This document shows positions 26,590 to 38,137 of a stretch of 64,000 bases of DNA, in pieces (positions within the stretch are counted from its first letter, which is position 1; each line of letters starts with the position of its first letter). Position numbers and translations under genes: made by a program. The notes under the pieces were generated by a model that saw only the letters and a program-made list of their open reading frames with translations, searched no databases and was not told the origin of the DNA. The DNA is from Deltaproteobacteria bacterium (GTDB lineage: Bacteria > Myxococcota_A > Polyangia > Nannocystales > Nannocystaceae). Where the stretch lies: contig JADJRA010000001.1 in the NCBI GenBank assembly GCA_016712475.1, positions 1,733,414 through 1,797,413 on the forward strand. Reading direction: 5' to 3'.

Positions 26590-27972
26590 TCAGAGCGCGT
26601 AGATCTCGACGTCGTCGACCCAGACGCTCTCGATGCCGGCCCAGTTGTACAGATCGACCGCGAAGCTGCCGGTTGCGTCCTGCAGCTCGGGGGTCGTGTC
26701 GAGGATGTCGATGAACCAGTCGGTGGGCTCGGGGTCGGTCGCGAGCCACACCTTGCCGCGCAGCTGCGTGCCGCCCGGCAGCTGCAGGACTTGGTAGCGC
26801 ATGCGGTACACCGTGCCCGGCTGCAGGCCGCCGGGGATCGGATCGAAGCTCGCCGACGACAGCGTCTCGATGCCCGCGACCTCGTGCCAGATGCCGAGCG
26901 ACTGCAGATAGAAGCCCTCGAGGAACAGCGCGTAGCCCTGCCCGGGCGGATCGGTTTGGTCGAGCGAGCCGCCGTTCTGCCGCGCGTAGAGCCCGAAGCC
27001 CTGCGAGTTCCAGTCGGTGAACTCGATCGACGCGTACATCTCGGCGTCGCGCAGATCGAAGCCCGGCAGCACGATGCGTGCGGTCCCACCGGTGATGCCC
27101 GACAGCTCGCCACGACCGTTCTGGATCGTCGCCGACAGCACGTTGTCGCCGACGATCATCCACGGCGACGGCCATGGATCGCCGTCGTTGCCGTCGAATG
27201 ACTCGGTGAAGATCGGCAGCTCGCCCATCATGCCGCCGCTGGTGCCGCCGTCGCTCGAGCTGCCGCCGCCCTCGGTGAGCCCGACGGTATCGATGCCTCC
27301 GCTCGTGGCCATGCCGCCGTCGCTGCCACCACTCGTACCCGTGACGACGTCGCCACTCGTGCCCGTGACGACGTCGCCACTCGTGCCCGTGACGACATCG
27401 CCGCTCGTGCCCGTGACGCCATCGCCACTCGTGCCCGTGACGACGTCGCCGCTCGTGCCCGTGACGACGTCGCCACTCGTGCCCGTCGCGACGTCACCAC
27501 TCGTGCCCGTGACGACATCGCCACTCGTGCCCGTGACGACGTCGCCACTCGTGCCCGTCGCGACGTCGCCGCTCGTGCCCGTCGCGGTGCCGTCACCGCG
27601 GGAGGTCGTGTCGCTGCCCGAGCCGGCGCTGGTGTTGCCCTCGGTCGTGCCGCTGCCCTCGCCCCCGGTGCTGCTGCCCTCGCTGGCGCTGGTCGTGCTC
27701 GTGCCGTGGGTCTCGGACCCGGTGGTGTCCGCGGCCGTGGTGCCAGGCCCGGTGGTGCCAGGCCCGGTGGTGCCAGGCCCGGTGGTCGAACCGGTGCCAC
27801 CCGAGCTGTCGACGCTGCCGGTCGACGCGCTCGCGGAGCTCGCGTCGCCACCGCTGCTCGAGCCGGTGATCGATGGATCCTCGGTGACGTCCCCCGTGCA
27901 GGCCCCAGTGACCCACAGGGACGCCACGGCGATCGCTCGATACCAAGGTGCGTTCATGACCATGTCGCGATG
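26590..27972 (-). CDS. Lipoprotein with Thr/Gly/Ser-rich tandem-repeat linker and C-terminal globular domain
   Basis: MVMNAPWYRAIAVASLWVTGACTG (lipobox VTGAC). About 10 copies of TGTSGDVV. The C-terminal ~200 aa looks like a beta-sandwich. Confidence 0.7.
   Translation of the reverse strand, partial: HRDMVMNAPWYRAIAVASLWVTGACTGDVTEDPSITGSSSGGDASSASASTGSVDSSGGTGSTTGPGTTGPGTTGPGTTAADTTGSETHGTSTTSASEGSSTGGEGSGTTEGNTSAGSGSDTTSRGDGTATGTSGDVATGTSGDVVTGTSGDVVTGTSGDVATGTSGDVVTGTSGDVVTGTSGDGVTGTSGDVVTGTSGDVVTGTSGDVVTGTSGGSDGGMATSGGIDTVGLTEGGGSSSDGGTSGGMMGELPIFTESFDGNDGDPWPSPWMIVGDNVLSATIQNGRGELSGITGGTARIVLPGFDLRDAEMYASIEFTDWNSQGFGLYARQNGGSLDQTDPPGQGYALFLEGFYLQSLGIWHEVAGIETLSSASFDPIPGGLQPGTVYRMRYQVLQLPGGTQLRGKVWLATDPEPTDWFIDILDTTPELQDATGSFAVDLYNWAGIESVWVDDVEIYAL
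27330..27595. repeat. 24-bp tandem repeat array (~10.5 copies) inside the lipoprotein gene
   Basis: Unit actcgtgcccgtgacgacgtcgcc with point variants (ccactcgtgcccgtgacgac[a/g]tcgcc...). It encodes TGTSGDV[V/A] on the minus strand. Confidence 0.85.
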
Positions 27973-28312
27973 CGCCTCCCTGCGCACGTCATTGCGGCCA
28001 GGGTATCACGGTCGGCAGGCCATTCGGCCACTCGGCACCGCCGCACCCGCAAGCGTTTGGATTGCACGTCGATGTCACCGCGCGGTGTCGCGCGGGTCCT
28101 GACGGGGCGACGCGAATGCCGACATGGCGGCGCGTCGATCGAAATGGACAGGAGTTCCCCGATACGACGCGAGGCGGAGCGCAGCGTCCGCTCCGCACGA
28201 TCGAGTCGATCGAGTCGATCTTCGTCGATCTTCGTCGCATCATCCGAGCGCACGCTCGGAAGGTGCATCGTGATACACCGAAGATGGGCGACAACGCTTC
28301 GCCGATGTCGAG

Positions 28313-29749
28313 ATGCCGACCTATCGCTTGATCGTCGAGGTCTCCCCGAACGCGATGCTGCTGGTCGACCGCGACCGTCGCATCGAGATGGTCAACCGCA
28401 GCGCCGAGCAGCTGTTCGGCTACTCGCGCGCGGAGCTGCTAGGGCAGGCGGTCGAGATGCTGATCCCGGAGCACCTCCGCGACGCCCACGCGGCCCACGT
28501 CCACGGGTTCTACGGGGCGCCGCAGTCCCGCGCGATGGGAGCCGGGCGCGATCTGCATGGTCTGCGCAAGGACGGCACGCAGGTACCAATCGAGATCGGG
28601 CTCAACCCGATCGAGACCCCGGAAGGGCTGTTCATGTTGGCGTCGATCATCGACATCACCGAGCGCAAGCGGGCCGATCGGGCCTTCCGCGCGGTGGTCG
28701 AGGCCTCGCCCAGCGCCATGCTGATGGTCGATGCGAGCGGCACGATCCGCCTGGTCAATCGTGGCATCGAGGAGCTGTTCGGCTACCCCCGCGAGGAGCT
28801 CATCGGTCGTGCGGTCGACGTGCTGCTGCCCGACGACGTTCGCGCGCGGCATCCCGAGCTCGTGGCGAGCTACTTCGCCACGCCGGAGTCGCGGCCCATG
28901 GGCGCAGGACGCGAGCTGTTCGGTCGTCGCAAGGACGGCAGCGTGGTCCCGATCGAGATCGGCCTGAGTCCGATCGACATCGAGGCCGGGCAGTTCACGC
29001 TCGCCGCGATCCACGACATCACCGAGCGCGCGCGTCGGGACCAGGAGCTGCGCAGGAGCAACGCCGACCTCGAGCGCTTCGCGTACATCGCCTCGCATGA
29101 CCTGCAAGAGCCCCTGCGCATGGTCGCCAACTACACCGAGCTGCTCGGCCAGCGCTACCGCGGGCAGCTCGACGACAGGGCCGACAAGTACATCCACTAC
29201 GCCACCGACGGTGCCAAGCGGATGCAGCAGCTGATCCGCGATCTGCTCGCGTACTCGCGCGTGGGTGCCGAGGGGAAGCCGATGGTCGCCGTCGAGGTCG
29301 GCACCGTGATGGAGCGCGTGCGGCGGAGCCTGGGCCCGACGATCCTCGAGCACGAGGCGACGCTGAAGGTCGGGCCACTACCCACCGTGCGGGCGGACCC
29401 GAGCCAGCTCGAGCAGCTGCTGCAGAACCTCGTCGCCAACGCGATCAAGTTCCACGACGACGCACCCCCGGTGGTCGAGGTCAGCGCTGCGCTCGAGCGC
29501 GGCCGGTGGTGCTTCGCCGTGCGCGACAACGGCATCGGCATCGACGCCGAGTACGCCACCCGCATCTTCGAGATGTTCCAACGCCTGCACGAGCGCGGAC
29601 GCTACGAGGGCAGCGGTATCGGGCTCGCGATCGCCAAGCGCATCGTCGAGCGACACGGCGGTGAGCTCTGGTTCACCTCGACGCCCGGGATCGGCACGAC
29701 GTTCTTCTTCACCCTCCAACCCACGTCGGGATCGCCCTCATCGCCATGA
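28313..29749 (+). CDS. Cytoplasmic sensor histidine kinase (PAS-PAS-HisKA-HATPase)
   Basis: Two PAS domains (repeated ...LFGYSR.EL.G..V..L.P...R..H). H-box FAYIASHDLQEPLR. N/G1/G2 boxes (NAIKF, DNGIGID, GSGIGLAIAKRIV). Confidence 0.85.
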   Translation: MPTYRLIVEVSPNAMLLVDRDRRIEMVNRSAEQLFGYSRAELLGQAVEMLIPEHLRDAHAAHVHGFYGAPQSRAMGAGRDLHGLRKDGTQVPIEIGLNPIETPEGLFMLASIIDITERKRADRAFRAVVEASPSAMLMVDASGTIRLVNRGIEELFGYPREELIGRAVDVLLPDDVRARHPELVASYFATPESRPMGAGRELFGRRKDGSVVPIEIGLSPIDIEAGQFTLAAIHDITERARRDQELRRSNADLERFAYIASHDLQEPLRMVANYTELLGQRYRGQLDDRADKYIHYATDGAKRMQQLIRDLLAYSRVGAEGKPMVAVEVGTVMERVRRSLGPTILEHEATLKVGPLPTVRADPSQLEQLLQNLVANAIKFHDDAPPVVEVSAALERGRWCFAVRDNGIGIDAEYATRIFEMFQRLHERGRYEGSGIGLAIAKRIVERHGGELWFTSTPGIGTTFFFTLQPTSGSPSSP

Positions 29750-30165
29750 AGCCAGCCCGCATTCTGCTCGTCGAGGACAACCCCGGCGATCTCGAGCTCA
29801 CGATCGACGCGTTGGCCGACAGCGACCTCGTGCTCGACGTCTCGTCCGCCATCGACGGTGCAGACGCACTCAACCTCCTTCGCCGACTCGTCGCCTCCGG
29901 CGAGGGCTTGCCCGATCTGGTCGTGCTCGATCTCAACCTCCCGAAGCTCGACGGGCGCGAGGTACTCGCGGCGATCCGTTCGACGCCCGAGCTGCGCACG
30001 CTGCCAGTGGTCGTGCTCTCCTCCTCGGACGCCGAACGTGATGTGCTCGAGAGCTACGCCGCCGGCGCCAACTGCTACGTCACCAAGCCGGTGGATCTCG
30101 CGGGCTTCCAGAGTGCTGTGCGTTCGATCGGCGGTTTCTGGTTGAGCGTCGTCCGACTACCGTGA
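29746..30165 (+). CDS. Single-domain response regulator (CheY-like receiver)
   Basis: ATGA overlap with the HK stop. ILLVEDNPGD...VVLDLNLPKLDG...CYVTKP. Confidence 0.85.
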   Translation: MKPARILLVEDNPGDLELTIDALADSDLVLDVSSAIDGADALNLLRRLVASGEGLPDLVVLDLNLPKLDGREVLAAIRSTPELRTLPVVVLSSSDAERDVLESYAAGANCYVTKPVDLAGFQSAVRSIGGFWLSVVRLP

Positions 30166-30406
30166 TCCGCTTCAGGGAAATCCTGGTGGTCGCTCGCTCG
30201 GGGTCGCCCTGGCCGCGGTGAGCGTGCTGGTCGTCACCAACGTCGCGCGATCCGTGGCATCCTGAAGGCGCGCCGCTCGCGTTGCACGGTCGCGGATGAA
30301 CAAACACTGCCCCGAAGGGATGCGGGCAGCGAAGCAACGAGGTCGACGAAGTTCGTCGGAGCAGGCGCCCACTTCGTCGTGCCCAGGTTCTGCGCACGAG
30401 GCCACG

Positions 30407-32299
30407 ATGCCAGGAGAGAAGACCCGAATCCTGCTGGTCGAGGACAACCCGGGTGATGCCGATCTCACCATCGAGCGACTGCACGAGGCCGGTGTCGCAG
30501 AGTTCGAGATCCGCTGCGTCTCGACCCTGCGCGAGACCATGCGCGCGCTCGCAGCCGAGCCCACCGATGCGGTGATCCTCGACCTCGACCTGCCCGACTC
30601 GCGGGGCATCGAGACCGTGTCTCGAGTGGTCGCGGCCGCTGGAACGGCGCCGGTGGTGGTGGTCTCGGGCTCGATCGACGAGAACCTGCATCGCGTCGCC
30701 CAGTCGGCCGGCGCGCACGACACGTACAGCAAGGACGAGATCCAGAGCCGACTGTTCCCACGCAGCCTGCTGCACGTGGTCGAGCGTCACCACGCCCGCG
30801 AGCGCCAGATCCAGATCGAGGCCCTGCTCGACACGACGCCCGACGCCATCGTGGTCTCCAACCGCGAGGGCGTCGTGCGCTACGTGAACGAGGCGGCGTT
30901 GGGCCTGTTCTGCCGTCGCCGCGAGGACTTCATCGGCGAGCCGCTCGGCTTCTCCGTGCACGATGGCGAGTCGACCGAGATCCGCGTCGATACCGCTGCC
31001 GGCACGAAGTCGTGTGAGCTGCGCGTGGTTGCGTTCCAGTGGCAAGGTGAAGCGGCGTTCGTGGCGGTGATCCGCGACGTCACCCAGCGGAAGTACCTCG
31101 AGGCCCAGCTGCTCATGAACGATCGCCTGGTCTCGATGGGTACGCTCGCCGCCGGCGTTGCACACGAGATCAACAACCCGCTGGCGGCGGTGGTTGCCAA
31201 CGTGACGGTTGCGATCGAGGAACTCTCGCACCTCATGCTGCGCCGCGACGTGATCGACGGCGTCATGGATGCCCTCCGCGACACCCGCGACGCCGCCGAG
31301 CAGATCCGTCAGATCGTGCGCGACCTGAAGGTCTACTCGCGCGCCGAGCCCGATGAGACCAGCTCGACCGCCTTCGAGGTCCACCACATGCTCGACGCGG
31401 TCGCACGTCTGGCGTGGCATGAGGTTCGGCAGCGCGCCCGCCTGGTCAAGGACTACGGCGGCAAGTTGGTGGTGGTCGGCAACGAGTCGCGCATGAGCCA
31501 GGTCTTCCTCAACCTCGTGATCAACGCCGCGCAGGCGATCCCGGCGGGTGCCCCGGAGTTCCACGAGATCCGCATCCGCACCGCACGCGAAGGCGACGGC
31601 CGGGTCGTCGTCGAGGTTCGTGACACCGGCGCAGGCATTCCGCTCGAGGTGCGTCCGCGCCTGTTCACGCCGTTCGTCACGACCAAGCCGATCGGCTCGG
31701 GCACCGGCTTGGGCCTGGCGATCTGCCAGCGCATCGTCACCGCCGCGGGCGGAAGGATCGACTACGAGAGTCAGCTCGGGGTCGGCACGTCGTTCTTCGT
31801 ACGCCTGCAGGCCGTCGACGACGCGGCGGCGAGGGCCGCCGACGTCGAGGGCCGCGGTCACGACGATGGCCCACCGCCGGCCGCGGCGCTGCGCCCCACG
31901 AAGCGCGGCCGCGTGCTCGCGATCGACGACGAGGCGTTGGTGCTCACGACCCTCGAGCGCGCGCTCGGTCGCGTGCACGAGGTCGTCTGCGAGAGCCGTG
32001 CAACCAACGCGCTGGCGCGGATCGAGGCCGGCGAGCGCTTCGACGTCATCCTGTGCGACATCATGATGCCCGAGATGACCGGGATCGAGTTCGCGACCGC
32101 GCTCGAGATCTCGGTGCCGGAGCAGGCGCAGCGCATCGTCTTCGTCACCGGCGGCGCCCTGCAGGCCGACGCGCAGAACTTCCTCGAACAGACCGAGTAC
32201 ATCCGCATCGAGAAGCCGTTCGACCTGTCGATGCTGCGAGCGGTGATGCAGCGGTTCTTGGCCGTTGGATTCGGCGACCAGGTCGTTGGCGACGCGTGA
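30407..32299 (+). CDS. Hybrid sensor histidine kinase (REC-PAS-HisKA-HATPase-REC)
   Basis: ATG at 30407 (MPGEKTRILLVEDNPGD). PAS domain. HEINNPLAAV H-box. HATPase G-boxes. C-terminal receiver (VLAIDDE...ILCDIMMPEMTG...). Confidence 0.85.
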   Translation: MPGEKTRILLVEDNPGDADLTIERLHEAGVAEFEIRCVSTLRETMRALAAEPTDAVILDLDLPDSRGIETVSRVVAAAGTAPVVVVSGSIDENLHRVAQSAGAHDTYSKDEIQSRLFPRSLLHVVERHHARERQIQIEALLDTTPDAIVVSNREGVVRYVNEAALGLFCRRREDFIGEPLGFSVHDGESTEIRVDTAAGTKSCELRVVAFQWQGEAAFVAVIRDVTQRKYLEAQLLMNDRLVSMGTLAAGVAHEINNPLAAVVANVTVAIEELSHLMLRRDVIDGVMDALRDTRDAAEQIRQIVRDLKVYSRAEPDETSSTAFEVHHMLDAVARLAWHEVRQRARLVKDYGGKLVVVGNESRMSQVFLNLVINAAQAIPAGAPEFHEIRIRTAREGDGRVVVEVRDTGAGIPLEVRPRLFTPFVTTKPIGSGTGLGLAICQRIVTAAGGRIDYESQLGVGTSFFVRLQAVDDAAARAADVEGRGHDDGPPPAAALRPTKRGRVLAIDDEALVLTTLERALGRVHEVVCESRATNALARIEAGERFDVILCDIMMPEMTGIEFATALEISVPEQAQRIVFVTGGALQADAQNFLEQTEYIRIEKPFDLSMLRAVMQRFLAVGFGDQVVGDA

Positions 32300-32360: not shown

Positions 32361-33167
32361 TCAGCCGTCGCCCGCGGCGTCGGGCAGGCAGTACGCCGTG
32401 TCGCCGACCGGCGTGCAGACGTCGGTACCGTCGCACGACGGCACCTCGAGATCGCAGCTCGGCGCGCAGACGGCGACGACCATGGGCTCGATCACCGCGC
32501 AGGTCCCCGTGCCCGCGCACTCGGGCTCGGAGCTACTGCCGCGGCACTGCTCGACACACACGCCCGTCGACGCCTCGGCGTCGAGCACCCAACAGAAGGC
32601 ACCGAACGCACAGTCGTCGACGCCGCTTTGCGGCTGGCCCTCGACGTGACACGGCTCGCCGATGTCGCTGGCGTCGGGCTGCACGGGGCTGCAGCGCGCC
32701 CGGTTCCAGGTGTCGCCGCCGTCGTTCGCCCACGGCTGGCACTTCTCGTCCGCGGGGCAATCCTGCGCGAACACGTCGCACTCCACCAACGCGCCACCGA
32801 GATCCGGTGCGCCATAGATGAAGCCACCCGCGGTCATGTCGGTGTCGAGCTCGGAGGTCGACGAGTCGACGCCGCTGTCCGAGAGCGTGGAGGCCGAGCC
32901 CTCGGTCGCCGTCGGCGCGCTCGTGCTCGACATGCCCTGCGTCGCATCGCCAGCCGAGGTCTCCGTGCTGGCGGAATCGCCCCCCGAGTCGCCGCCCTGC
33001 GGTTCTCCGCAGGCGAACAACATCGTCGAGATCGCCACCACTGCGATCGCCGGTGCAGAGGCCACGACGACGCGGCCCACCGGTGCACGACAGAACGGAC
33101 ACACCAACTCGCGCATCGCCACGTGCCGCCGACACCCACCACACCGCTGCATGATCTCACCCATCAC
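32361..33167 (-). CDS. Zinc-ribbon / single-TM / extracytoplasmic Cys-rich domain protein, coupled to the rSAM-SPASM gene
   Basis: ATG at 33167 overlaps the rSAM stop (ATGA). N-terminal CGGC-x12-CPFC, then TM helix VVVASAPAIAVVAISTMLFA. About 150 aa with 22 Cys (ECDVFAQDCPADEKCQPW...). Confidence 0.6.
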   Translation of the reverse strand: MMGEIMQRCGGCRRHVAMRELVCPFCRAPVGRVVVASAPAIAVVAISTMLFACGEPQGGDSGGDSASTETSAGDATQGMSSTSAPTATEGSASTLSDSGVDSSTSELDTDMTAGGFIYGAPDLGGALVECDVFAQDCPADEKCQPWANDGGDTWNRARCSPVQPDASDIGEPCHVEGQPQSGVDDCAFGAFCWVLDAEASTGVCVEQCRGSSSEPECAGTGTCAVIEPMVVAVCAPSCDLEVPSCDGTDVCTPVGDTAYCLPDAAGDG

Positions 33168-34522
33168 GTTGCCATCCCTTCGAGTCCATCCTCGGAGACA
33201 CCGACTTCGATTGTGTGACCCGGCCCCGAAGGGTCGCGGTCGCGTCCGGTGCGGGGCTCATCGATCTGCACCGGCCCGGCGGCCCGCAGCGCCGGATCGG
33301 TGTGCTCGCGAATCAAGCGGAAGAGGCCGTGCGCGAAGGCCTCTGGGCCCGCCGCCGCAACCTGTTCGACGCGCTCGCGCAGCCCCATGCGGTCGAGCTC
33401 GAGCGCGCGATGATGACAGTAGGGGTTGTTGCCGGGGCGCCCGAGCAACGGCTCGCTGGTCGCCGTGCAACCGGCCATGCAAGTCGAGGCGTAGTAGCAC
33501 TCGCGGCAGTAGCCCCACAGGTCGTCGAGCGTGCGGCGCTCCACGTAACGCATCGGCTCGGCGCCTTCCCACAGCGCGCGCAGCCCGTGCTCGCGCCAGC
33601 TGCCCCCGGTGTTGGTCGGCCCGCCCAGGCTCGGACAGCTCTTGATCGCGCCGTCGGCTTCGATTCCGATGCCGGTGAGGCCGGCCTGACAGCCACGATA
33701 GTGGGCGCCCTGGTTCTGCGACTGGCGCAGCTCGTGCTCGACCGGGCCGAAGTAGCCGAGGTTGTTGCCCGGCCAGATCCGGATGCCGCGTGCGCGTGCG
33801 CGCGGGATCATCTCGTCGAGCATCGCGAAGACCTCGAGCAGGTCGTAGGGCTGCAGCAACAGCTCGGGGTGATCCGCTGCGTTGCCGTGCGGCATCGTCA
33901 AGAACATCTGCCACGCGCGCACCCCCGCGTCGGCGAGCAGCTCGGCGAGCGCGGGCAGATCGTGGCGGCTCTTGGCGTTGATCTGGCTGTTCGCCCCCGT
34001 CGAGATGCCCGCGGCCTGGGCATGGCGAAGCGCCGCAAAGGCGCGGCGCCATCCACCGGGCGTACCGCGCAACGCGTCGTGGCTGGCTTCGAGCCCGTCG
34101 ATCGACACCGACACGAACTGCAGACCAGCCTCGACCAGCGCGTCCGCACGGGCGCGAGTGAGATTGAGCCCACCGGTGACCATCGATGCCTTCATGCCGG
34201 CCTGCCGAATCGCCCGGATCACGAGCAACACGTCGGCACGCAGGTAGGCCTCGCCGCCGATCAGGTCGACCTCACCGACACCGAGCTGGGCGAGCTCTTC
34301 GACGAGCTTCAACGCCTCGTCGGTGGTGAGCTCGTCGGGCCGAGCACGACCCGCGCGTGGCCCACACGCGACGCACTTCTGATCGCACGCGAGCGTGAAC
34401 TCCCAGACCGCGAGCTTCGGCGTCGGTCGCTCGCCCGGCGCCAGCGGTCGAGCCCAACGCGTACCCGAACGCGGCAACGATGCGACGATCGGAAGCCGAC
34501 GCCGCATCTGCTCGAACCCCAT
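33164..34522 (-). CDS. Radical SAM enzyme with C-terminal SPASM domain (peptide/protein-modifying maturase-type)
   Basis: CDQKCVACG is the CxxxCxxC radical-SAM cluster. SPASM Cys pattern CPSLGG...CRECYYASTCMAGC...YCHH. Candidate starts are ATG 34522, ATG 34507 and GTG 34555. Confidence 0.85.
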   Translation of the reverse strand: MGFEQMRRRLPIVASLPRSGTRWARPLAPGERPTPKLAVWEFTLACDQKCVACGPRAGRARPDELTTDEALKLVEELAQLGVGEVDLIGGEAYLRADVLLVIRAIRQAGMKASMVTGGLNLTRARADALVEAGLQFVSVSIDGLEASHDALRGTPGGWRRAFAALRHAQAAGISTGANSQINAKSRHDLPALAELLADAGVRAWQMFLTMPHGNAADHPELLLQPYDLLEVFAMLDEMIPRARARGIRIWPGNNLGYFGPVEHELRQSQNQGAHYRGCQAGLTGIGIEADGAIKSCPSLGGPTNTGGSWREHGLRALWEGAEPMRYVERRTLDDLWGYCRECYYASTCMAGCTATSEPLLGRPGNNPYCHHRALELDRMGLRERVEQVAAAGPEAFAHGLFRLIREHTDPALRAAGPVQIDEPRTGRDRDPSGPGHTIEVGVSEDGLEGMAT

Positions 34523-34551
34523 CGATGACGATGGTGAACGCGCCACCGGGA

Positions 34552-34629
34552 TCACGCAAGCGTTTTGTTCGCTAAGTTGGCAAAGCTTGAGTTGGTTCGC
34601 AGTCCGCCGCGAACTTTCGAAAAGTTCAT
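34552..34629 (-). CDS. Candidate 25-aa precursor-like peptide ORF upstream of the rSAM/SPASM gene (speculative)
   Basis: Minus strand reads gtGAGGcctatcgc ATG AAC TTT TCG AAA GTT CGC GGC GGA CTG CGA ACC AAC TCA AGC TTT GCC AAC TTA GCG AAC AAA ACG CTT GCG TGA, i.e. MNFSKVRGGLRTNSSFANLANKTLA. GAGG Shine-Dalgarno ~10 nt upstream. The stop is 30 nt before the rSAM ATG. Sits in the only ~50% GC stretch of the window. GC3 is only ~60%, and a GAACTTT-N3-AAAGTTC palindrome overlaps codons 2-6, so this may instead be a regulatory site. Confidence 0.25.
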   Translation of the reverse strand: MNFSKVRGGLRTNSSFANLANKTLA

Positions 34630-34892
34630 GCGATAGGCCTCACAAAGTCGGAGATCTTTTTGCGGATCGGCAGGCGACGCGGCCGGTCTATCCGTCCCGC
34701 GGCAGCGGGGGTCTGCCATCGGCCCTCGCAAGCTCGCGCCCGCGCATCGGGACCGACGGTGCGATCGCGAACGCGGGCCCGATGAACTCGATTCGACCCG
34801 CGAAGCTGTGGTGTCGCCGTGGGGGCAGCGACCTCGCGCGCTCGCGAGGATGCGTGCACGCGAGGATCACATCGTGCCGTACGAGCAGTTCA

Positions 34893-34924
34893 CCTTCGCT
34901 TGTGTCCGCGCGGACACAAGCGAA
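34893..34924. promoter_or_regulatory. Perfect 32-bp palindrome (16+16, no spacer), candidate operator
   Basis: cttcgcttgtgtccgc|gcggacacaagcgaag. Lies 58 bp upstream of the hydrolase lipoprotein ATG (34982), in the divergent region shared with the rSAM operon. Confidence 0.5.
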
Positions 34925-34981
34925 GGCGCACGTGCGGATCGCGGCACCGACGGACGAGCGCTGATAACCTCGGCGACGCTG

Positions 34982-37279
34982 ATGCTCGGATCTCGCGCCG
35001 CCATTCTCCTCGTCGCGTTCTCCTTCGGCTGCCACTCCGACGGCGGCGGCACGGCCGTCGGCGACAGCACCGGCACCACCGCGGCGGGATCGACCTCCAC
35101 CACCGCGGGCAGCAGCGACGCCGCCAGCGACAGCGGCGGCGGCACGCCCATCGATCCCGAGTCGCTCGGCCACAGCTGCGTGGTCGTGCGGGGCGGTGAC
35201 ACCTGGCTCGCGCGCAGCGGCGATGCGTTCGGCTTCTCCGCGACCGCGGCCGCCGACGCCACATCATTCCGCCTGCAGCCGTCGGACCTCGCGACCTACC
35301 TGCTCTACGACGCCGAGCGCGGCTACCTCGTGGCCGAGGACGGCCCCTTGCTGCGCCAGACCCAGCTCGAGTCGGACCTCACGCGGGTCGACGACGATTA
35401 CGTCTCGGGCGCCGAGTGGATCGTCGAGCCCGCCGCCGGTGCGACCGTGCACCTGCGCAACCGTCGAACCGATCGCCTGCTCGGCGCGAGCGGACTGGTC
35501 GACGACGAGGCGAGCGCGCTGGCGATTGCGCTCGATGCCGGCGACGGCTGCACCGACCACCCCGAGCTCACGCTCGACGCCACCGGCACCCCCACCAAGA
35601 CCACCTTCGACGACGGCACCGTCTACGGCATCGTCGACACGCACTCGCACATCCTCTCGAACTTCGGCTTCGGCGGCGGCGGCATCTTCCACGGCGCGCC
35701 GTTCCACCGCTTGGGCATCGAGCATGCGCTCGCCGACTGTGCGCCATTCCACGGCGAGAACGGTCGCAAGGACTTCTTCGGCTACGCGTTCGACTCGGCG
35801 GGCGCCGACGGTGCCGACATCGCCTCGGTCATCCCCGATCTGATCGCCGGCTCGCTCTCGGTCGACGCCCACGCCACCGCCGGCTACCCCACGTTCACCG
35901 AGTGGCCCAGCGCGCCGACCCGGTCGACCCATCAGATGCAGTACTACAAGTGGCTCGAGCGCGCATGGCTGGGCGGGCTTCGGCTGGTCGTGCAGCACGC
36001 CACCACCAACTCGGCGATCTGCCACATGATCGCCGGCCAGGGCCTGCAGCCGGTGCGCTACTCGTGCGAAGACATGGTCGCCGTCGATCGCATCATCGAC
36101 GAGACCTACGCGCTCGAGCGCTACATCGACGCGCAATCCGGCGGCAGCGGCAAGGGCTGGTTCCGCGTGGTCACGACCCCCGCCGACGCTCGCGAGGTGA
36201 TCGCCGCCGGCAAGCTCGCGGTGGTGCTCGGCATCGAGACCTCGGATCTGTTCGACTGCCGGCTGGTGCCGCGCGAGGGCGGCCCGACCTGCGACGCCGA
36301 CTTCCTGCGCGCACAGCTCGACGCCTACCGCGACCGCGGCGTGCGGGCGGTGTTCCCCGTGCACAAGTACGACAACGCGTTCGGCCCCGTCGATGGCGAC
36401 CGCGCGTTCATCGAGCTCGGCAACTTCTTCAACTCCGGTCACTGGTCGAACTTCACGCAGGAGTGCCCGGCGGAGCGCCCGGCTCGCTTCGACAACGGTG
36501 ACGTGCAGTTCGGCGGCCTCAACATGCCGCGCGAGCAGTTCGATGCGCCGCCGCCGATCGACTTCAGCAACTTCCCGGGCGCACCGCTCGCGACCGCCCT
36601 GCCCTACATCAACGCGATCTCGGCGCCTGCGCTGGTCGGCGACTACTGCCAGAACGCGAGCATGACGACGCTCGGCGAGACGCTCATGCGCGAGATGATG
36701 CTGCGCGGGATGATCATCGAGATCGATCACTTGCCGCAGTGGTCGTACCAGCGGGCCTTCGAGCTGCTCGAGGAGAACGACTACCCCGCGGTCGGCTCGC
36801 ACGGCGGCACCTACGACGGCCGGCTCTACGAGCTCGGCGGCGTGTCGAAGACCGGCCTCGGCGAGTGCCGCGAAGACACCCCCGGCGCGATGACGCAGCG
36901 CCTGCGCGATCGCATCGAAGAGATCGTCGCGCATGGTGGCTATCCCGCCGAGGGCTTCGGCTTCGACCTCAACGGCTTCGCCGGCGCGCCCGGTGGGCGC
37001 TTCGAGGCCGGCGCCTGCGCGACGGCACAGGCCGATCCCGTCACCTACCCGTTCACCTCCTTCGCCGGCGACGTCGAGTTCACGCAGCCGATGCTCGGCG
37101 AGCGCGTCGTCGACTACGCCAACGAGGGCTTCGTACACATTGGGATGCTGCCCGAGATGCTCGAGGACGCCCGCCGCGACGCCACCTCCGACGACGATCT
37201 CGAGCCGCTGTTCCACTCCGCCGAGGGCTACCTCCGCATGTGGGAACGGGCCGAGCAGCGCGCGGGCGAGCTGCAGTGA
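34982..37279 (+). CDS. Lipoprotein, putative metal-dependent hydrolase (amidohydrolase/dipeptidase-like)
   Basis: MLGSRAAILLVAFSFGCHSD (lipobox FSFGC). Gly/Thr-rich linker. IVDTHSHILSNFG (DxHxH-type metal site), PVHKYDN and IEIDHLP motifs. 765 aa. Confidence 0.6.
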   Translation: MLGSRAAILLVAFSFGCHSDGGGTAVGDSTGTTAAGSTSTTAGSSDAASDSGGGTPIDPESLGHSCVVVRGGDTWLARSGDAFGFSATAAADATSFRLQPSDLATYLLYDAERGYLVAEDGPLLRQTQLESDLTRVDDDYVSGAEWIVEPAAGATVHLRNRRTDRLLGASGLVDDEASALAIALDAGDGCTDHPELTLDATGTPTKTTFDDGTVYGIVDTHSHILSNFGFGGGGIFHGAPFHRLGIEHALADCAPFHGENGRKDFFGYAFDSAGADGADIASVIPDLIAGSLSVDAHATAGYPTFTEWPSAPTRSTHQMQYYKWLERAWLGGLRLVVQHATTNSAICHMIAGQGLQPVRYSCEDMVAVDRIIDETYALERYIDAQSGGSGKGWFRVVTTPADAREVIAAGKLAVVLGIETSDLFDCRLVPREGGPTCDADFLRAQLDAYRDRGVRAVFPVHKYDNAFGPVDGDRAFIELGNFFNSGHWSNFTQECPAERPARFDNGDVQFGGLNMPREQFDAPPPIDFSNFPGAPLATALPYINAISAPALVGDYCQNASMTTLGETLMREMMLRGMIIEIDHLPQWSYQRAFELLEENDYPAVGSHGGTYDGRLYELGGVSKTGLGECREDTPGAMTQRLRDRIEEIVAHGGYPAEGFGFDLNGFAGAPGGRFEAGACATAQADPVTYPFTSFAGDVEFTQPMLGERVVDYANEGFVHIGMLPEMLEDARRDATSDDDLEPLFHSAEGYLRMWERAEQRAGELQ

Positions 37280-37299
37280 GCGACGCTGAGGCCGTCGCC

Positions 37300-37740
<441 letters not shown>

Positions 37741-38137
37741 GTGTGGGAGGGGGACGACGCGAGCCGCGGGGCCAGGCCGGCGCTTCGGGGGAGGCGTGGG
37801 CGGCATGGGGGCGGCACGCTCGCCTGAGAGGCGGCGAGGGGGTGGCGCGGCAGTGGCAGGCACTCAGGACACGGGGGGAGGCCAGGACGGGCCGCGCGAC
37901 CGCGGTAGAGGGGGGGGGCAGCGCGAACACCGGCGCGCCCGGGCCACGCTCACGTCCTGCCGACACCCACTTCCGGTCGTGCTGTGCCCCGCAAGCTGCC
38001 TGCGGGCGGCAACGAGCTCTCAGAGCGCGACCGCTGGACTCGCGTCCCGCTAGGCACGAGCCTACAGCAACCGACGCGGCCCGGCCGGCGGCGGGACCGG
38101 GGGGGGGGACGTCCGCGCGGCTCGGCCGCCTACGGCC

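What the first reader, a model, noticed from the sequence alone, without database searches (positions are those of the whole stretch)
32361..34629. Candidate undescribed radical-SAM/SPASM modification system: 25-codon upstream ORF in an AT-rich island, rSAM-SPASM enzyme, and a translationally coupled Zn-ribbon/TM/Cys-rich protein
The minus-strand operon contains a canonical rSAM (CDQKCVACG) with a SPASM auxiliary-cluster domain. This fold is used by peptide/protein maturases such as PqqE, MftC, anSME, QhpD, and sactipeptide, ranthipeptide and triceptide synthases. Thirty nt upstream of its ATG lies a 25-aa ORF (MNFSKVRGGLRTNSSFANLANKTLA) with a GAGG Shine-Dalgarno. It sits in the only ~50% GC stretch of a ~70% GC window, as expected for a laterally acquired or precursor-type leader. 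It has no Cys but carries aromatic-x-(N/K) triplets (FSK, FAN) of the kind cross-linked by triceptide-type rSAM/SPASM enzymes. Immediately downstream, with an ATGA overlap, is a 268-aa protein. It has a cytoplasmic Cys4 zinc ribbon, one TM helix, and a ~150-aa extracytoplasmic domain with 22 Cys. That domain is an alternative candidate substrate, analogous to QhpD/QhpC-type protein maturation. No matching family can be named from the sequence alone.
Basis: partly seen in the sequence, partly recalled or inferred. Interest (0 to 1): 0.8.

Follow-up and report, generated by a model that had tools for sequence, protein, structure and literature searches.

The report
Splicease-like radical-SAM enzyme with lipoprotein substrate
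A two-gene cassette in a myxobacterial genome pairs a radical-SAM enzyme related to the backbone-cutting "spliceases" with an exported lipoprotein that carries the enzyme's likely Tyr-Gly target behind an unusual zinc-ribbon-plus-signal-peptide leader. The 25-codon upstream ORF that prompted the finding is not a gene.

Summary
The sequence features are real, with small errors. There is an rSAM/SPASM gene (33164-34522, -) and a stop/start-overlapping 267-aa gene (32361-33164, -). The 78-nt ORF lies in the most AT-rich 100 nt of the window.

The small ORF is not a precursor. Its GC3 is 0.58, against at least 0.82 for real genes. It is absent from loci whose rSAM is 80-86% identical.

The enzyme falls in the clade of NCBIfam TIGR03913 and TIGR04103, the latter being the PlpX tyramine-splicease family. 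It scores about 420 bits to each, below both cut-offs; the next family scores 140.

The conserved partner is the downstream protein. At least 63 of 77 related Myxococcota loci encode, next to the rSAM, a protein with three parts:
- a C-x2-C-x10-C-x-F-C ribbon;
- a lipobox-type signal peptide;
- one to five x-Y-G/A-x-P motifs.

In the window this motif is GGFIYGAPD. Paralogous Cys-rich lipoproteins without the ribbon lack this Tyr-Gly (16/16 versus 0/12), and three of four checked have no rSAM nearby.

Best reading: a spliceotide-type system acting on a lipoprotein precursor, with ribbon plus signal peptide as the leader. The chemistry is inferred, not shown. I could not check whether Scott et al. 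2022 already described this type.

The parts
33164..34522 (-). rSAM/SPASM enzyme, 452 aa (identical to P0001). It is splicease-like and has no N-terminal RRE, since the CX3CX2C motif starts at residue 46.
   Evidence: NCBIfam: TIGR03913 424.7 bits and TIGR04103 421.6 bits; the next family scores 140.5. The ATG at 34522 matches the family N-terminus RRRLPxVxSLP. AF2 pLDDT 82.9, pTM 0.85; nearest PDB folds are SkfB, SuiB, PqqE and anSME.
34364..34387 (-). CX3CX2C radical-SAM cluster motif (CDQKCVAC, residues 46-53).
   Evidence: The motif is invariant in 27 homologues.
33416..33691 (-). SPASM region with seven invariant Cys (C278 to C369), which ligate the two auxiliary [4Fe-4S] clusters.
   Evidence: Pfam SPASM is sub-threshold at 17.6 bits, but the full-length alignments are to SPASM families.
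32361..33164 (-). Partner and presumed substrate protein, 267 aa. Its start overlaps the rSAM stop codon (GTGATG).
   Evidence: Conserved next to the rSAM in L083 and L085 and in at least 63 of 77 GTDB loci.
33090..33143 (-). Zinc ribbon C-x2-C-x10-C-x-F-C (CGGCRRHVAMRELVCPFC, residues 8-25). It is the presumed cytoplasmic leader or docking module.
   Evidence: The same spacing and R-H-[VIL] core occur in 72 distinct partners. AF2 pLDDT is 81-89, and the segment superposes on NZF/RanBP2 zinc fingers at 0.7-1.4 A. The Sphingomonas version matches positions 419-473 of the TIGR03913 model.
33009..33077 (-). Hydrophobic signal segment ending in the lipobox-like L-F-A-C52.
   Evidence: Position -1 is A, G or S in 73 of 73 partners, and +2 is mostly G or S. 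In the alignment, Zn-less paralogues have ordinary lipoprotein signal peptides ending at the same Cys.
32829..33008 (-). Ser/Thr/Gly/Asp-rich linker (residues 53-112), predicted disordered.
   Evidence: AF2 pLDDT below 50 across residues 33-124.
32802..32828 (-). GGFIYGAPD (residues 113-121). Y117-G118 lie at 32811-32816 and form the proposed modification site (X-Tyr-Gly). Y117 is one of only two Tyr in the protein.
   Evidence: Y-[GA] is present in 16 of 16 ribbon-bearing members and 0 of 12 ribbon-less paralogues at this alignment position (Fisher p 3e-8). Family logo.
32364..32792 (-). Cys-rich all-beta ectodomain with 16 Cys (residues 125-267). It is a Nannocystales lipoprotein domain that is not specific to the rSAM system.
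   Evidence: AF2 pLDDT 85-95 with no PDB fold match (best E 0.56).
34552..34629 (-). 25-codon ORF. It is not a gene but part of the AT-rich divergent intergenic region.
   Evidence: GC3 is 0.58. It is not conserved in orthologous loci and has no family hits.
34523..34807 (.). Divergent intergenic region between the rSAM operon and the M19-like gene (34808-37279, +). It contains the AT-rich island and the 7-bp inverted repeat at 34611-34627, and is the presumed promoter/operator region.
   Evidence: There are no sigma-70 consensus, terminator or Rfam matches. The promoter role is inferred only.

Best explanation
This is a self-contained two-gene cassette of the spliceotide kind.

Shown:
- The rSAM/SPASM enzyme belongs to the clade that contains the tyramine splicease PlpX.
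- It is almost always encoded next to a protein built as zinc ribbon, then a lipobox-type signal peptide, then a low-complexity linker, then one or more x-Tyr-Gly/Ala-x-Pro motifs.
- Within one paralogous lipoprotein family, the Tyr-Gly is present exactly where the ribbon is present. The rSAM adjacency was checked for only some members (window, L083, L085, P0142 with an rSAM; three of four ribbon-less members without).

Inferred mechanism:
1. The cytoplasmic enzyme binds the newly made partner through the N-terminal ribbon. The ribbon plays the part that the PlpY protein or the RhaA leader helix plays for known spliceases.
2. The enzyme acts on the Tyr of GGFIYGAPD while the chain is still unfolded. 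[quoted passage not shown]
3. The protein is exported. Lgt and signal peptidase II cut before Cys52, removing ribbon and signal peptide together as the 'leader'.
4. What remains is a lipid-anchored, disulfide-rich protein with an electrophilic ketoamide just ahead of its folded domain.
For: Enzyme family:
- TIGR03913 scores 424.7 bits and TIGR04103 421.6 bits over nearly the whole length. The next family scores 140.5, and the sactipeptide, MftC and PqqE families score under 90.
- PlpX belongs to IPR026482, which is the 'nif11-class rSAM maturase 3' family, and cuts at X-Tyr-Gly (PMC11002830, PMC10849128, PMC9811515).

Co-occurrence:
- 56 of 77 GTDB loci have a ribbon/lipobox protein within 1.5 kb. 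Seven more were found with looser criteria.
- The partner sits downstream, convergent or upstream. The neighbouring genes differ.

Target motif:
- In 61 Cys-poor mature regions, 152 of 170 Tyr are followed by Gly or Ala, where 30% is expected (binomial p 1e-59).
- The logo is GG-[IV]-x-[AP]-x-Y-G-[GAS]-P-P-x-D.

Paralogue contrast:
- FIYG (or FYA) occurs in 16 of 16 ribbon-bearing members, against 0 of 12 ribbon-less members at the same position.
- P0142, apparently ribbon-less but with FIYG, turned out to be a mis-called start. It has a ribbon and sits next to an rSAM.
- The ribbon-less P0140, P0139 and P0152 have no rSAM in the locus (about 4 kb of flank).

Accessibility:
- The motif lies in a segment with pLDDT below 50, directly before the folded domain.

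Ribbon as an enzyme-linked module:
- The Sphingomonas stand-alone ribbon protein aligns to positions 419-473 of the 477-position TIGR03913 enzyme model (E 2e-8).
- Engineered fusions of the activator to the C-terminus of the enzyme or the N-terminus of the precursor both work for known spliceases (PMC11414181).

Lipoprotein-pathway RiPPs have a precedent (PMC13056109).
Against: - No chemistry was observed.
- The enzyme is below the curated cut-off of both families, so it is a sister subfamily whose reaction could differ.
- About 15% of the sites are Y-A rather than Y-G. In the papers I could read, characterised spliceases act at X-Y-G.
- The Sphingomonas relatives have a ribbon protein without any Tyr and no YG protein within 4 kb. 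The ribbon may therefore have a role independent of YG.
- NCBI's name, 'GDL motif peptide-associated', may treat the ribbon peptide itself as the substrate.
- Some close paralogues (L004-L006, L086) show no partner within 4 kb.
- The lipobox was judged by pattern only, and position -3 is often non-canonical.
- The homology of the myxobacterial ribbon to the Sphingomonas and TIGR03913 ribbon rests on identical Cys spacing and the shared R-[HF]-[VIL]-R core, not on a significant score.
Confidence: 0.5

Rival explanations
1. Same enzyme-substrate pair and same Tyr site, but a different radical reaction. Candidates are a Tyr cross-link, beta-hydroxylation, epimerisation or another backbone rearrangement, rather than tyramine excision.
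For: - The enzyme is below the equivalog cut-offs and equidistant from TIGR03913, whose chemistry I could not find described.
- Y-A sites and a near-invariant Pro at +3 (126 of 158 sites) give a motif, Y-[GA]-x-P, that is richer than plain XYG.
Against: - The only characterised reaction in this clade is tyramine excision at XYG (PMC11002830, PMC9811515).
- A three-residue cyclophane of the triceptide type is unlikely, because the third residue is often Gly, which has no C-beta.
Confidence: 0.2
2. The ribbon-like CxxC...CxFC segment is itself the substrate, for example for thioether or other Cys chemistry on a 'GDL-motif peptide'. On this view the YG motifs belong to the exported domain for unrelated reasons.
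For: - Sphingomonadales loci have only the rSAM plus a 62-99 aa ribbon protein with an invariant C-x-F-C-G-G-D-L and no Tyr.
- The NCBIfam name speaks of a GDL-motif peptide.
- SPASM enzymes often make Cys thioethers.
Against: - It does not explain why Tyr-Gly appears in the Cys-rich lipoprotein family only together with the ribbon (16/16 versus 0/12).
- It does not explain why 89% of Tyr in the mature regions sit in one motif.
- AF2 folds the segment as a confident zinc knuckle pair.
- Hits to sacti- and ranthipeptide families are weak: StsB 86.8 and SkfB 69.3 bits.
- GDL is not conserved after the ribbon in Myxococcota.
Confidence: 0.1
3. The rSAM has a non-peptide substrate (cofactor or small molecule), and the ribbon protein is only a membrane tether or regulator for it.
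For: Weak hits to AhbD/NirJ heme enzymes (about 100-140 bits). One homologue is annotated 'heme biosynthesis protein' (P0076).
Against: - The top two families are both RiPP maturases, with scores three times higher.
- No heme or cofactor genes are conserved nearby.
- Partners are duplicated two or three times behind one enzyme, as RiPP precursors are.
- A conserved short motif in otherwise low-complexity sequence is the signature of a substrate.
Confidence: 0.07
4. One reading: the 25-aa upstream ORF is a triceptide-like precursor cross-linked at its FSK/FAN triplets.
For: The ORF exists, with a GAGG 8 nt upstream of its ATG, and lies 29 nt before the rSAM start.
Against: - GC3 is 0.58 and GC1 0.38 in a genome whose genes have GC3 of at least 0.82.
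- It is absent from loci with 80-86% identical enzymes.
- No similar DNA or peptide occurs upstream of about 85 related rSAM genes.
- It has no family hit.
- XyeB, GrrM and FxsB are not among the 25 best NCBIfam hits.
Confidence: 0.02
5. One reading: the Cys-rich ectodomain is the substrate, as in QhpD/QhpC-type Cys cross-linking.
For: There are 16 Cys in the C-terminal domain, and the gene is translationally coupled to the rSAM.
Against: - The domain is found with ordinary signal peptides, and three of four ribbon-less members checked have no rSAM in the locus.
- 61 of 67 partners examined have at most two Cys in the mature part.
- The 16 Cys are invariant in ribbon-less paralogues too, which fits structural disulfides.
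Confidence: 0.03

Closest known systems
Spliceotide systems: tyramine spliceases PlpX/PcpX (type I, with a Y protein) and RhaX/RasX/RcsX (type II, binary). NCBIfam TIGR04103 / InterPro IPR026482.
   Same: - The enzyme is an rSAM/SPASM with no N-terminal RRE. It aligns over its full length to TIGR04103 (E 2.5e-126).
- The substrate gene is adjacent and carries X-Tyr-Gly site(s), often several per chain and with a variable X residue.
- It is a binary system without a separate Y gene, like the non-cyanobacterial types (PMC11414181).
   Different: - The score is below the family cut-off (421.6 against 725).
- The precursor has no Nif11 or NHLP leader. It has a zinc ribbon followed by a lipoprotein signal peptide.
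- The product would be a membrane-anchored protein of 100-300 residues, not a released peptide.
- Some sites are Y-A, and the motif has a strong Pro at +3.
[quoted passage not shown] In Chromobacterium it sits in an operon with DUF1842 and DUF1843 proteins (PMC12114271).
   Same: - It is the best-scoring family (424.7 bits).
- The ribbon module appears in both. The C-terminal positions 419-473 of the model match the Sphingomonas ribbon protein, which shares the Cys spacing and R-x-[HF]-[VIL]-R core of the window's ribbon.
   Different: - The score is below the cut-off of 591.75.
- The window enzyme covers only model positions 16-392, and the ribbon is in the next gene, fused to the substrate.
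- No DUF1842 or DUF1843 protein is nearby.
- There is no GDL after the ribbon.
DAG-RiPPs: MNIO (ChrH/DybH)-modified peptides matured by the lipoprotein pathway (PMC13056109, 2026).
   Same: The precursor is modified in the cytoplasm. It is then sent through a lipobox signal peptide, so that signal peptidase II does the 'leader removal'. Protein-sized precursors occur.
   Different: - The modifying enzyme is an rSAM/SPASM, not an MNIO.
- A folded zinc ribbon precedes the signal peptide.
- The target motif is Tyr-Gly, not CPxCGxG.
- Lipidation is not shown here.
Other SPASM RiPP maturases with solved structures (SkfB, SuiB, PqqE, anSME).
   Same: The overall fold matches: Foldseek E 1e-17 to 1e-12 and TM 0.53-0.58. 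The seven-Cys SPASM pattern is present.
   Different: - Sequence similarity is low (at most 79 bits).
- There is no RRE domain.
- A beta-rich extension follows the SPASM domain (residues 381-421).

Membership tests
Spliceotide / tyramine-splicease system (PlpX family, TIGR04103) | The enzyme scores above the curated equivalog cut-off of TIGR04103 (725 bits). | tested here: not met
   421.6 bits, E 2.5e-126, model positions 6-386 of 412. It is a clear relative but not an equivalog. The Polyangia relative L059 scores 511 bits.
Spliceotide / tyramine-splicease system (PlpX family, TIGR04103) | A precursor encoded beside the enzyme carries X-Tyr-Gly site(s). | tested here: met
   - The window partner has GGFIYGAPD.
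- At least 63 of 77 related loci have a partner, nearly all with 1-5 Y-[GA] motifs.
- 152 of 170 Tyr are followed by G or A.
Spliceotide / tyramine-splicease system (PlpX family, TIGR04103) | [quoted passage not shown] | not testable with these tools
   Needs co-expression and MS/MS.
Spliceotide / tyramine-splicease system (PlpX family, TIGR04103) | An activator element: either a PqqD-like Y protein or a leader helix that binds the enzyme. | tested here: inconclusive
   No PqqD-like or other small conserved gene is present. A zinc ribbon occupies the leader position. Its binding to the enzyme is inferred from its presence in the TIGR03913 enzyme model. No complex model could be run.
Spliceotide / tyramine-splicease system (PlpX family, TIGR04103) | A Nif11- or NHLP-type leader (type I/II precursors). 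| tested here: not met
   The partner has no Pfam or NCBIfam hit at E <= 0.01.
TIGR03913 (GDL motif peptide-associated maturase) | A score of at least 591.75 bits. | tested here: not met
   424.7 bits, model positions 16-392 of 477.
TIGR03913 (GDL motif peptide-associated maturase) | Operon partners DUF1842/DUF1843, as described for Chromobacterium (PMC12114271). | tested here: not met
   A Pfam scan of the partner, the small ORF and seven neighbouring genes found none.
TIGR03913 (GDL motif peptide-associated maturase) | The ribbon segment forms the C-terminal part of the enzyme model (positions about 420-477). | tested here: not met
   The window enzyme ends before it, and the ribbon is the N-terminus of the next gene.
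DAG-RiPP (lipoprotein-pathway RiPP) | The precursor has a signal peptide ending in a lipobox Cys. | tested here: met
   The window has L-F-A-C52. Across 73 partners, position -1 is always A, G or S and +2 is mostly G or S. This is pattern-based only, since no SignalP-type predictor was available.
DAG-RiPP (lipoprotein-pathway RiPP) | Diacylglycerol/acyl modification of the N-terminal Cys, and an MNIO as the modifying enzyme. | not testable with these tools
   Lipidation needs experiment. The enzyme here is an rSAM, not an MNIO, so at most the maturation logic is shared.
Sactipeptide / ranthipeptide synthases | Cys donors in the core peptide, and enzyme family membership. | tested here: not met
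   61 of 67 partners have at most two Cys in the mature part. StsB scores 86.8 and SkfB 69.3 bits, and PapB is seen only for L059 at 60 bits.
Triceptide (3-CyFE: XyeB/GrrM/FxsB) with the 25-aa ORF as precursor | A conserved short precursor with an aromatic-X-X motif next to the enzyme. | tested here: not met
   The ORF is not conserved and does not look coding. These families are not among the 25 best NCBIfam hits.
QhpD/QhpC-type protein maturation; anSME | A Cys-rich subunit, or a sulfatase, as the obligate neighbour and substrate. | tested here: not met
   The Cys-rich domain occurs without the rSAM, and most partners lack it. No sulfatase is nearby. Neither family is among the 25 best hits.

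The most novel reading that the evidence does not exclude
[quoted passage not shown] They use a previously undescribed bipartite leader, a zinc ribbon followed by a lipoprotein signal peptide, which the cell's own signal peptidase II removes. This would be the first spliceotide-type lipoprotein, and a natural counterpart of the engineered activator-precursor fusions.
Probability: 0.35. Interest if true: 0.75.

Novelty: new variant of a known kind. Interest (0 to 1): 0.6.

Why it matters
Spliceases are the only known way in which cells put beta-amino acids and reactive ketoamides into ribosomal proteins. According to the papers I could read, the native end products of such pathways are still unknown.

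A large myxobacterial family would give three things:
- **Natural protein-sized substrates.** The substrate is an exported, probably lipid-anchored protein.
- **A hypothesis for function.** The products could be envelope-tethered protease inhibitors or electrophilic handles in predatory, protease-secreting bacteria.
- **A new recognition module.** The zinc ribbon could be used in protein engineering.

The work also adds a second enzyme class to the recently described idea that RiPP precursors can borrow the lipoprotein pathway for leader removal.

Practically, neither NCBIfam release 20 nor Pfam has a model for this partner or this enzyme subfamily. These genes are therefore annotated only as 'radical SAM protein' and 'hypothetical protein'.

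Tried and rejected
- **Conservation of the 25-aa ORF.** I looked for small ORFs within 500 nt upstream of 77 related rSAM genes. I read the upstream DNA of the three closest orthologues. I ran fuzzy and BLAST searches for the island and the palindrome in all loci. It was found only in the same strain (L001, L002).
- **RNA or regulatory element in the island.** There was no Rfam match and no sigma-70 or terminator consensus.
- **Stand-alone search with the 56-aa ribbon plus signal peptide** against 1.84 billion representatives. It gave 5 hits, so it was too insensitive to size the family.
- **Search for natural ribbon-rSAM fusions** with the Sphingomonas ribbon profile. All 120 best hits are 62-99 aa stand-alone proteins. 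The fusion is therefore supported only by the coordinates in the TIGR03913 model.
- **Long rSAM homologues** (P0030, P0086). They are not fusions.
- **Fold of the Cys-rich domain.** No PDB match.
- **PDB search for a splicease structure.** None found.
- **Literature.** Scott et al. 2022 (Chem), which classifies splicease types, is not held. The supplements of two Piel-lab papers are not held. I found no paper linking spliceases to Myxococcota, zinc ribbons or lipoproteins.
- **Complex model.** I did not attempt an enzyme-partner complex model, because the tool folds single chains of window or database sequences only.

Full report
**What is in the sequence**

Region 32361-34629 of the window holds two minus-strand genes with the codon bias of real genes (GC3 0.84 and 0.88).
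- The first is an rSAM/SPASM gene. NCBI's start, ATG 34522, gives 452 aa, identical to P0001 from a 'Deltaproteobacteria' MAG. This start matches the family N-terminus RRRLPxVxSLP.
- The second is a 267-aa gene whose start overlaps the rSAM stop codon. The junction reads GTGATG, not ATGA.

The operon is bounded by a convergent hybrid histidine kinase gene (30296-32299) and a divergent M19-like gene (34808-37279).

The CDQKCVAC motif and seven invariant SPASM cysteines are present. The AF2 model is confident (pLDDT 82.9, pTM 0.85). Its nearest solved folds are the RiPP maturases SkfB, SuiB and PqqE, then anSME.

**The 25-codon ORF**

The ORF exists at 34552-34629, and the island around it is the most AT-rich 100 nt of the window (GC 0.47). 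Three lines of evidence argue that it is not a gene:
- Its GC3 is 0.58 and its GC1 0.38, in a genome whose genes have GC3 of at least 0.82.
- Nothing like it lies upstream of the rSAM in the three closest orthologous loci. In L083 (86% identical enzyme) another gene ends 61 nt upstream. L085 and L086 are both 80% identical.
- Neither the peptide, the island nor its 7-bp inverted repeat recurs in about 85 related loci. Only L001 and L002, which are 99% identical assemblies of the same organism, have it.

No Rfam family, sigma-70 consensus or terminator matches there. I read the region as the divergent promoter region, which is an inference. The repeat at 34611-34627 may be a strain-specific operator.

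**Which enzyme family**

NCBIfam gives two hits far above all others:
- TIGR04103, 'nif11-class peptide radical SAM maturase 3': 421.6 bits against a cut-off of 725.

The next family scores 140.5. The sactipeptide, mycofactocin and PQQ enzymes score under 90.

PlpX, the founding tyramine splicease, is described as a member of IPR026482, an rSAM-SPASM subclass found with Nif11/NHLP precursors (PMC11002830, PMC10849128). Equating IPR026482 with TIGR04103 rests on my own knowledge plus the matching name.

[quoted passage not shown] The window enzyme is thus a sister subfamily of the splicease clade, not an equivalog of either curated family.

The subfamily is large. All 120 best database hits exceed 600 bits and come from Nannocystis, Plesiocystis, Enhygromyxa and related MAGs. 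Single genomes carry several copies, for example at least four in N. punicea.

**The conserved partner**

The genes around the 80-86% identical enzymes are all different. Only the downstream protein recurs: in L083 (260 aa, 21 Cys) and L085 (269 aa, 21 Cys), but not in L086.

In 77 GTDB loci I scanned all six frames for C-x2-C-x(7-14)-C-x-[FWY]-C followed by a hydrophobic run ending in Cys.
- 56 loci have such a protein within 1.5 kb of the rSAM.
- Seven more appear with looser criteria or slightly further away. Several of the remaining loci are cut by contig ends.
- The same scan finds exactly one such protein in the whole 64-kb window, namely the partner.
- The partner may lie downstream on the same strand, convergent, or directly upstream. 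Polyangia loci often have two or three copies in tandem.

The ribbon is strikingly uniform: C-P-x-C-x-R-H-[VIL]-R-x5-C-P-F-C, with 10 residues between the two Cys pairs in 72 distinct sequences. AF2 folds it confidently (pLDDT 81-89). It superposes on NZF/RanBP2 zinc fingers at about 1 A, although such a small domain cannot reach a significant Foldseek E-value.

The hydrophobic segment always ends in [AGS]-Cys (73 of 73), followed mostly by Gly or Ser. Ribbon-less paralogues align with ordinary lipoprotein signal peptides ending at the same Cys. The 'TM helix' is therefore most likely a lipoprotein signal peptide with a folded zinc ribbon in its n-region.

**The Tyr-Gly motif**

The mature parts of the partners vary. 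They are mostly low-complexity Asp/Gly/Pro/Thr-rich chains of 60-200 residues with no Cys other than the lipobox Cys. In a Nannocystales subgroup that includes the window, they are a 16-Cys beta-rich domain. What they share is one to five copies of a short motif.
- In the 61 Cys-poor mature regions, 152 of 170 tyrosines are followed by Gly (134) or Ala (18). Composition predicts 30% (binomial p 1e-59; the sequences are related, so the p-value is only indicative).
- The logo is GG-[IV]-x-[AP]-x-Y-G-[GAS]-P-P-x-D.

The window's partner has two tyrosines. Y117 sits in GGFIYGAPD (32802-32828). The AF2 model places it in the disordered linker (pLDDT below 50), directly before the folded domain.

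The sharpest test is internal to the Cys-rich family.
- All 16 members with a ribbon have F-I-Y-G (one has F-Y-A) at this alignment position.
- The 12 members with ordinary signal peptides have F-I-[IVG]-x, F-L-x or similar, and no Tyr there (Fisher p 3e-8).
- P0139 has a Y-G two columns earlier, which I count as a non-match.
- P0142, an apparent exception with FIYG and no ribbon, is a mis-called start. The in-frame upstream sequence encodes MKSCPACERHVRSTESSCPFC, and the gene follows an rSAM/SPASM gene.
- The ribbon-less P0140, P0139 and P0152 have no rSAM in the locus (about 4 kb of flank). P0144 has only an unrelated gene with a weak SPASM hit 3.8 kb away.

Within this lipoprotein family, ribbon and Tyr-Gly are gained together, and the rSAM accompanies them in the members whose loci I checked.

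**How it most likely works**

Shown:
- the family placement of the enzyme;
- the co-occurrence of enzyme and partner;
- the architecture of the partner;
- the motif statistics.

Inferred:
1. The cytoplasmic Fe-S enzyme, which has no signal peptide and no RRE because its cluster motif starts at residue 46, binds the nascent partner through the ribbon.
2. It modifies the Tyr-Gly site while the Cys-rich domain is still unfolded in the reducing cytoplasm.
3. Sec export and the Lgt/LspA pathway then remove ribbon and signal peptide in one cut. This is the equivalent of RiPP leader removal.

Support for a docking or activating role of the ribbon is indirect.
- In Sphingomonadales the rSAM scores 537-571 bits to TIGR03913. 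It is followed, with an 8-nt overlap, by a 62-99 aa protein that is just this ribbon plus a helix.
- That protein aligns to positions 419-473 of the 477-position enzyme model (E 2e-8).
- Richter et al. showed that the splicease activator (the Y protein or the RhaA leader helix) works whether free, fused to the C-terminus of the enzyme, or fused to the N-terminus of the precursor (PMC11414181). The same three arrangements are seen, or implied, for the ribbon here.

Use of the lipoprotein pathway by RiPP precursors was demonstrated in 2026 for MNIO-modified 'DAG-RiPPs' (PMC13056109). That paper does not mention rSAM enzymes. Ketoamides made by spliceases inhibit Ser/Cys proteases (PMC11626197). 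An envelope-tethered inhibitor is a reasonable guess at function, but only a guess.

**Weak points**

- No chemistry has been observed, and the enzyme is below both curated cut-offs.
- About 15% of sites are Y-A.
- The Sphingomonas ribbon proteins have no Tyr, and no YG protein lies within 4 kb. The ribbon could therefore be a substrate in its own right, which may be what NCBI's 'GDL motif peptide' means, since these proteins carry an invariant C-x-F-C-G-G-D-L.
- Some close paralogues lack a partner within 4 kb (L004-L006, L086).
- The link between the myxobacterial and Sphingomonas ribbons rests on pattern identity, not on a significant score.

**Novelty**

The kind of system, a spliceotide or rSAM-SPASM RiPP system, is known. 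Three things appear to be new:
- the precursor type, with zinc ribbon plus lipobox signal peptide as leader and a protein-sized, probably lipid-anchored product;
- the Y-[GA]-x-P motif;
- the expansion of the family in Myxococcota.

Neither NCBIfam release 20 nor Pfam has a model for the partner or for this enzyme subfamily. No paper in the held library links spliceases to Myxococcota, zinc ribbons or lipoproteins.

Scott et al. 2022 surveyed YG-rich neighbours of PlpX-like enzymes in 189 genera (PMC10849128) and may already list this type. I could not read that paper. I therefore rate the finding a new variant of a known kind, with interest 0.6.

Noticed in passing
window 37304-37753: There is a poly-G tract of about 450 nt (GC 0.99-1.0). 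A 99%-identical assembly (L001, GCA_017996215.1) has, in place of window 37307-38122, about 1.9 kb encoding most of a 660-aa Trypsin_2 + Endonuclease_NS protein. The tract is therefore almost certainly a sequencing or assembly artefact, and ORFs across it (for example 35264-37966 on the minus strand) are meaningless.
   Followed up: partly
window 27329-27582, inside ORF 26590-27987 (-): A 24-nt tandem repeat of 10.6 copies encodes (TGTSGDVV)x10 in a 465-aa lipoprotein (LWVTGAC|TGD) with no Pfam hit.
   Followed up: no
L070 5235-5435 and L071 5148-5360 (Allosphingosinicella / Sphingomonas): More than 300 small (62-99 aa) proteins consist of the same C-x2-C-x10-C-x-F-C ribbon, an invariant GGDL and an Ala/Glu-rich helix. 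They overlap the end of a TIGR03913-like rSAM gene by 8 nt. They have no Tyr and no signal peptide, and no YG protein lies nearby. It is unresolved whether they are activators or substrates.
   Followed up: partly
L051, L054, L055, L059-L062, L074, L077, L081 (Polyangia MAGs): Two or three tandem partner genes follow a single rSAM. Each has its own ribbon, lipobox and 3-5 YG[AGS]PP repeats, in the manner of multi-precursor RiPP clusters.
   Followed up: partly
window 28313-32299 (+): A PAS histidine kinase, a single-domain response regulator and a hybrid kinase lie convergent to the cassette. They are not conserved next to orthologous cassettes (L083, L085, L086), so they are probably unrelated.
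   Followed up: yes
window rSAM residues 381-421 (about 33260-33382, -): A conserved beta-strand extension follows the SPASM domain (strands 381-389, 400-407, 419-421; pLDDT mostly 68-95). It is a candidate docking surface for the ribbon, but this was not tested.
   Followed up: no
L003 5422-6159 and L064 5233-5568: Some partners have I-Y-A instead of I-Y-G at the motif. In several Nannocystaceae paralogues every site is T-Y-A-G-P-D. If these are modified, the enzyme's site rule is broader than the published X-Y-G rule.
   Followed up: partly
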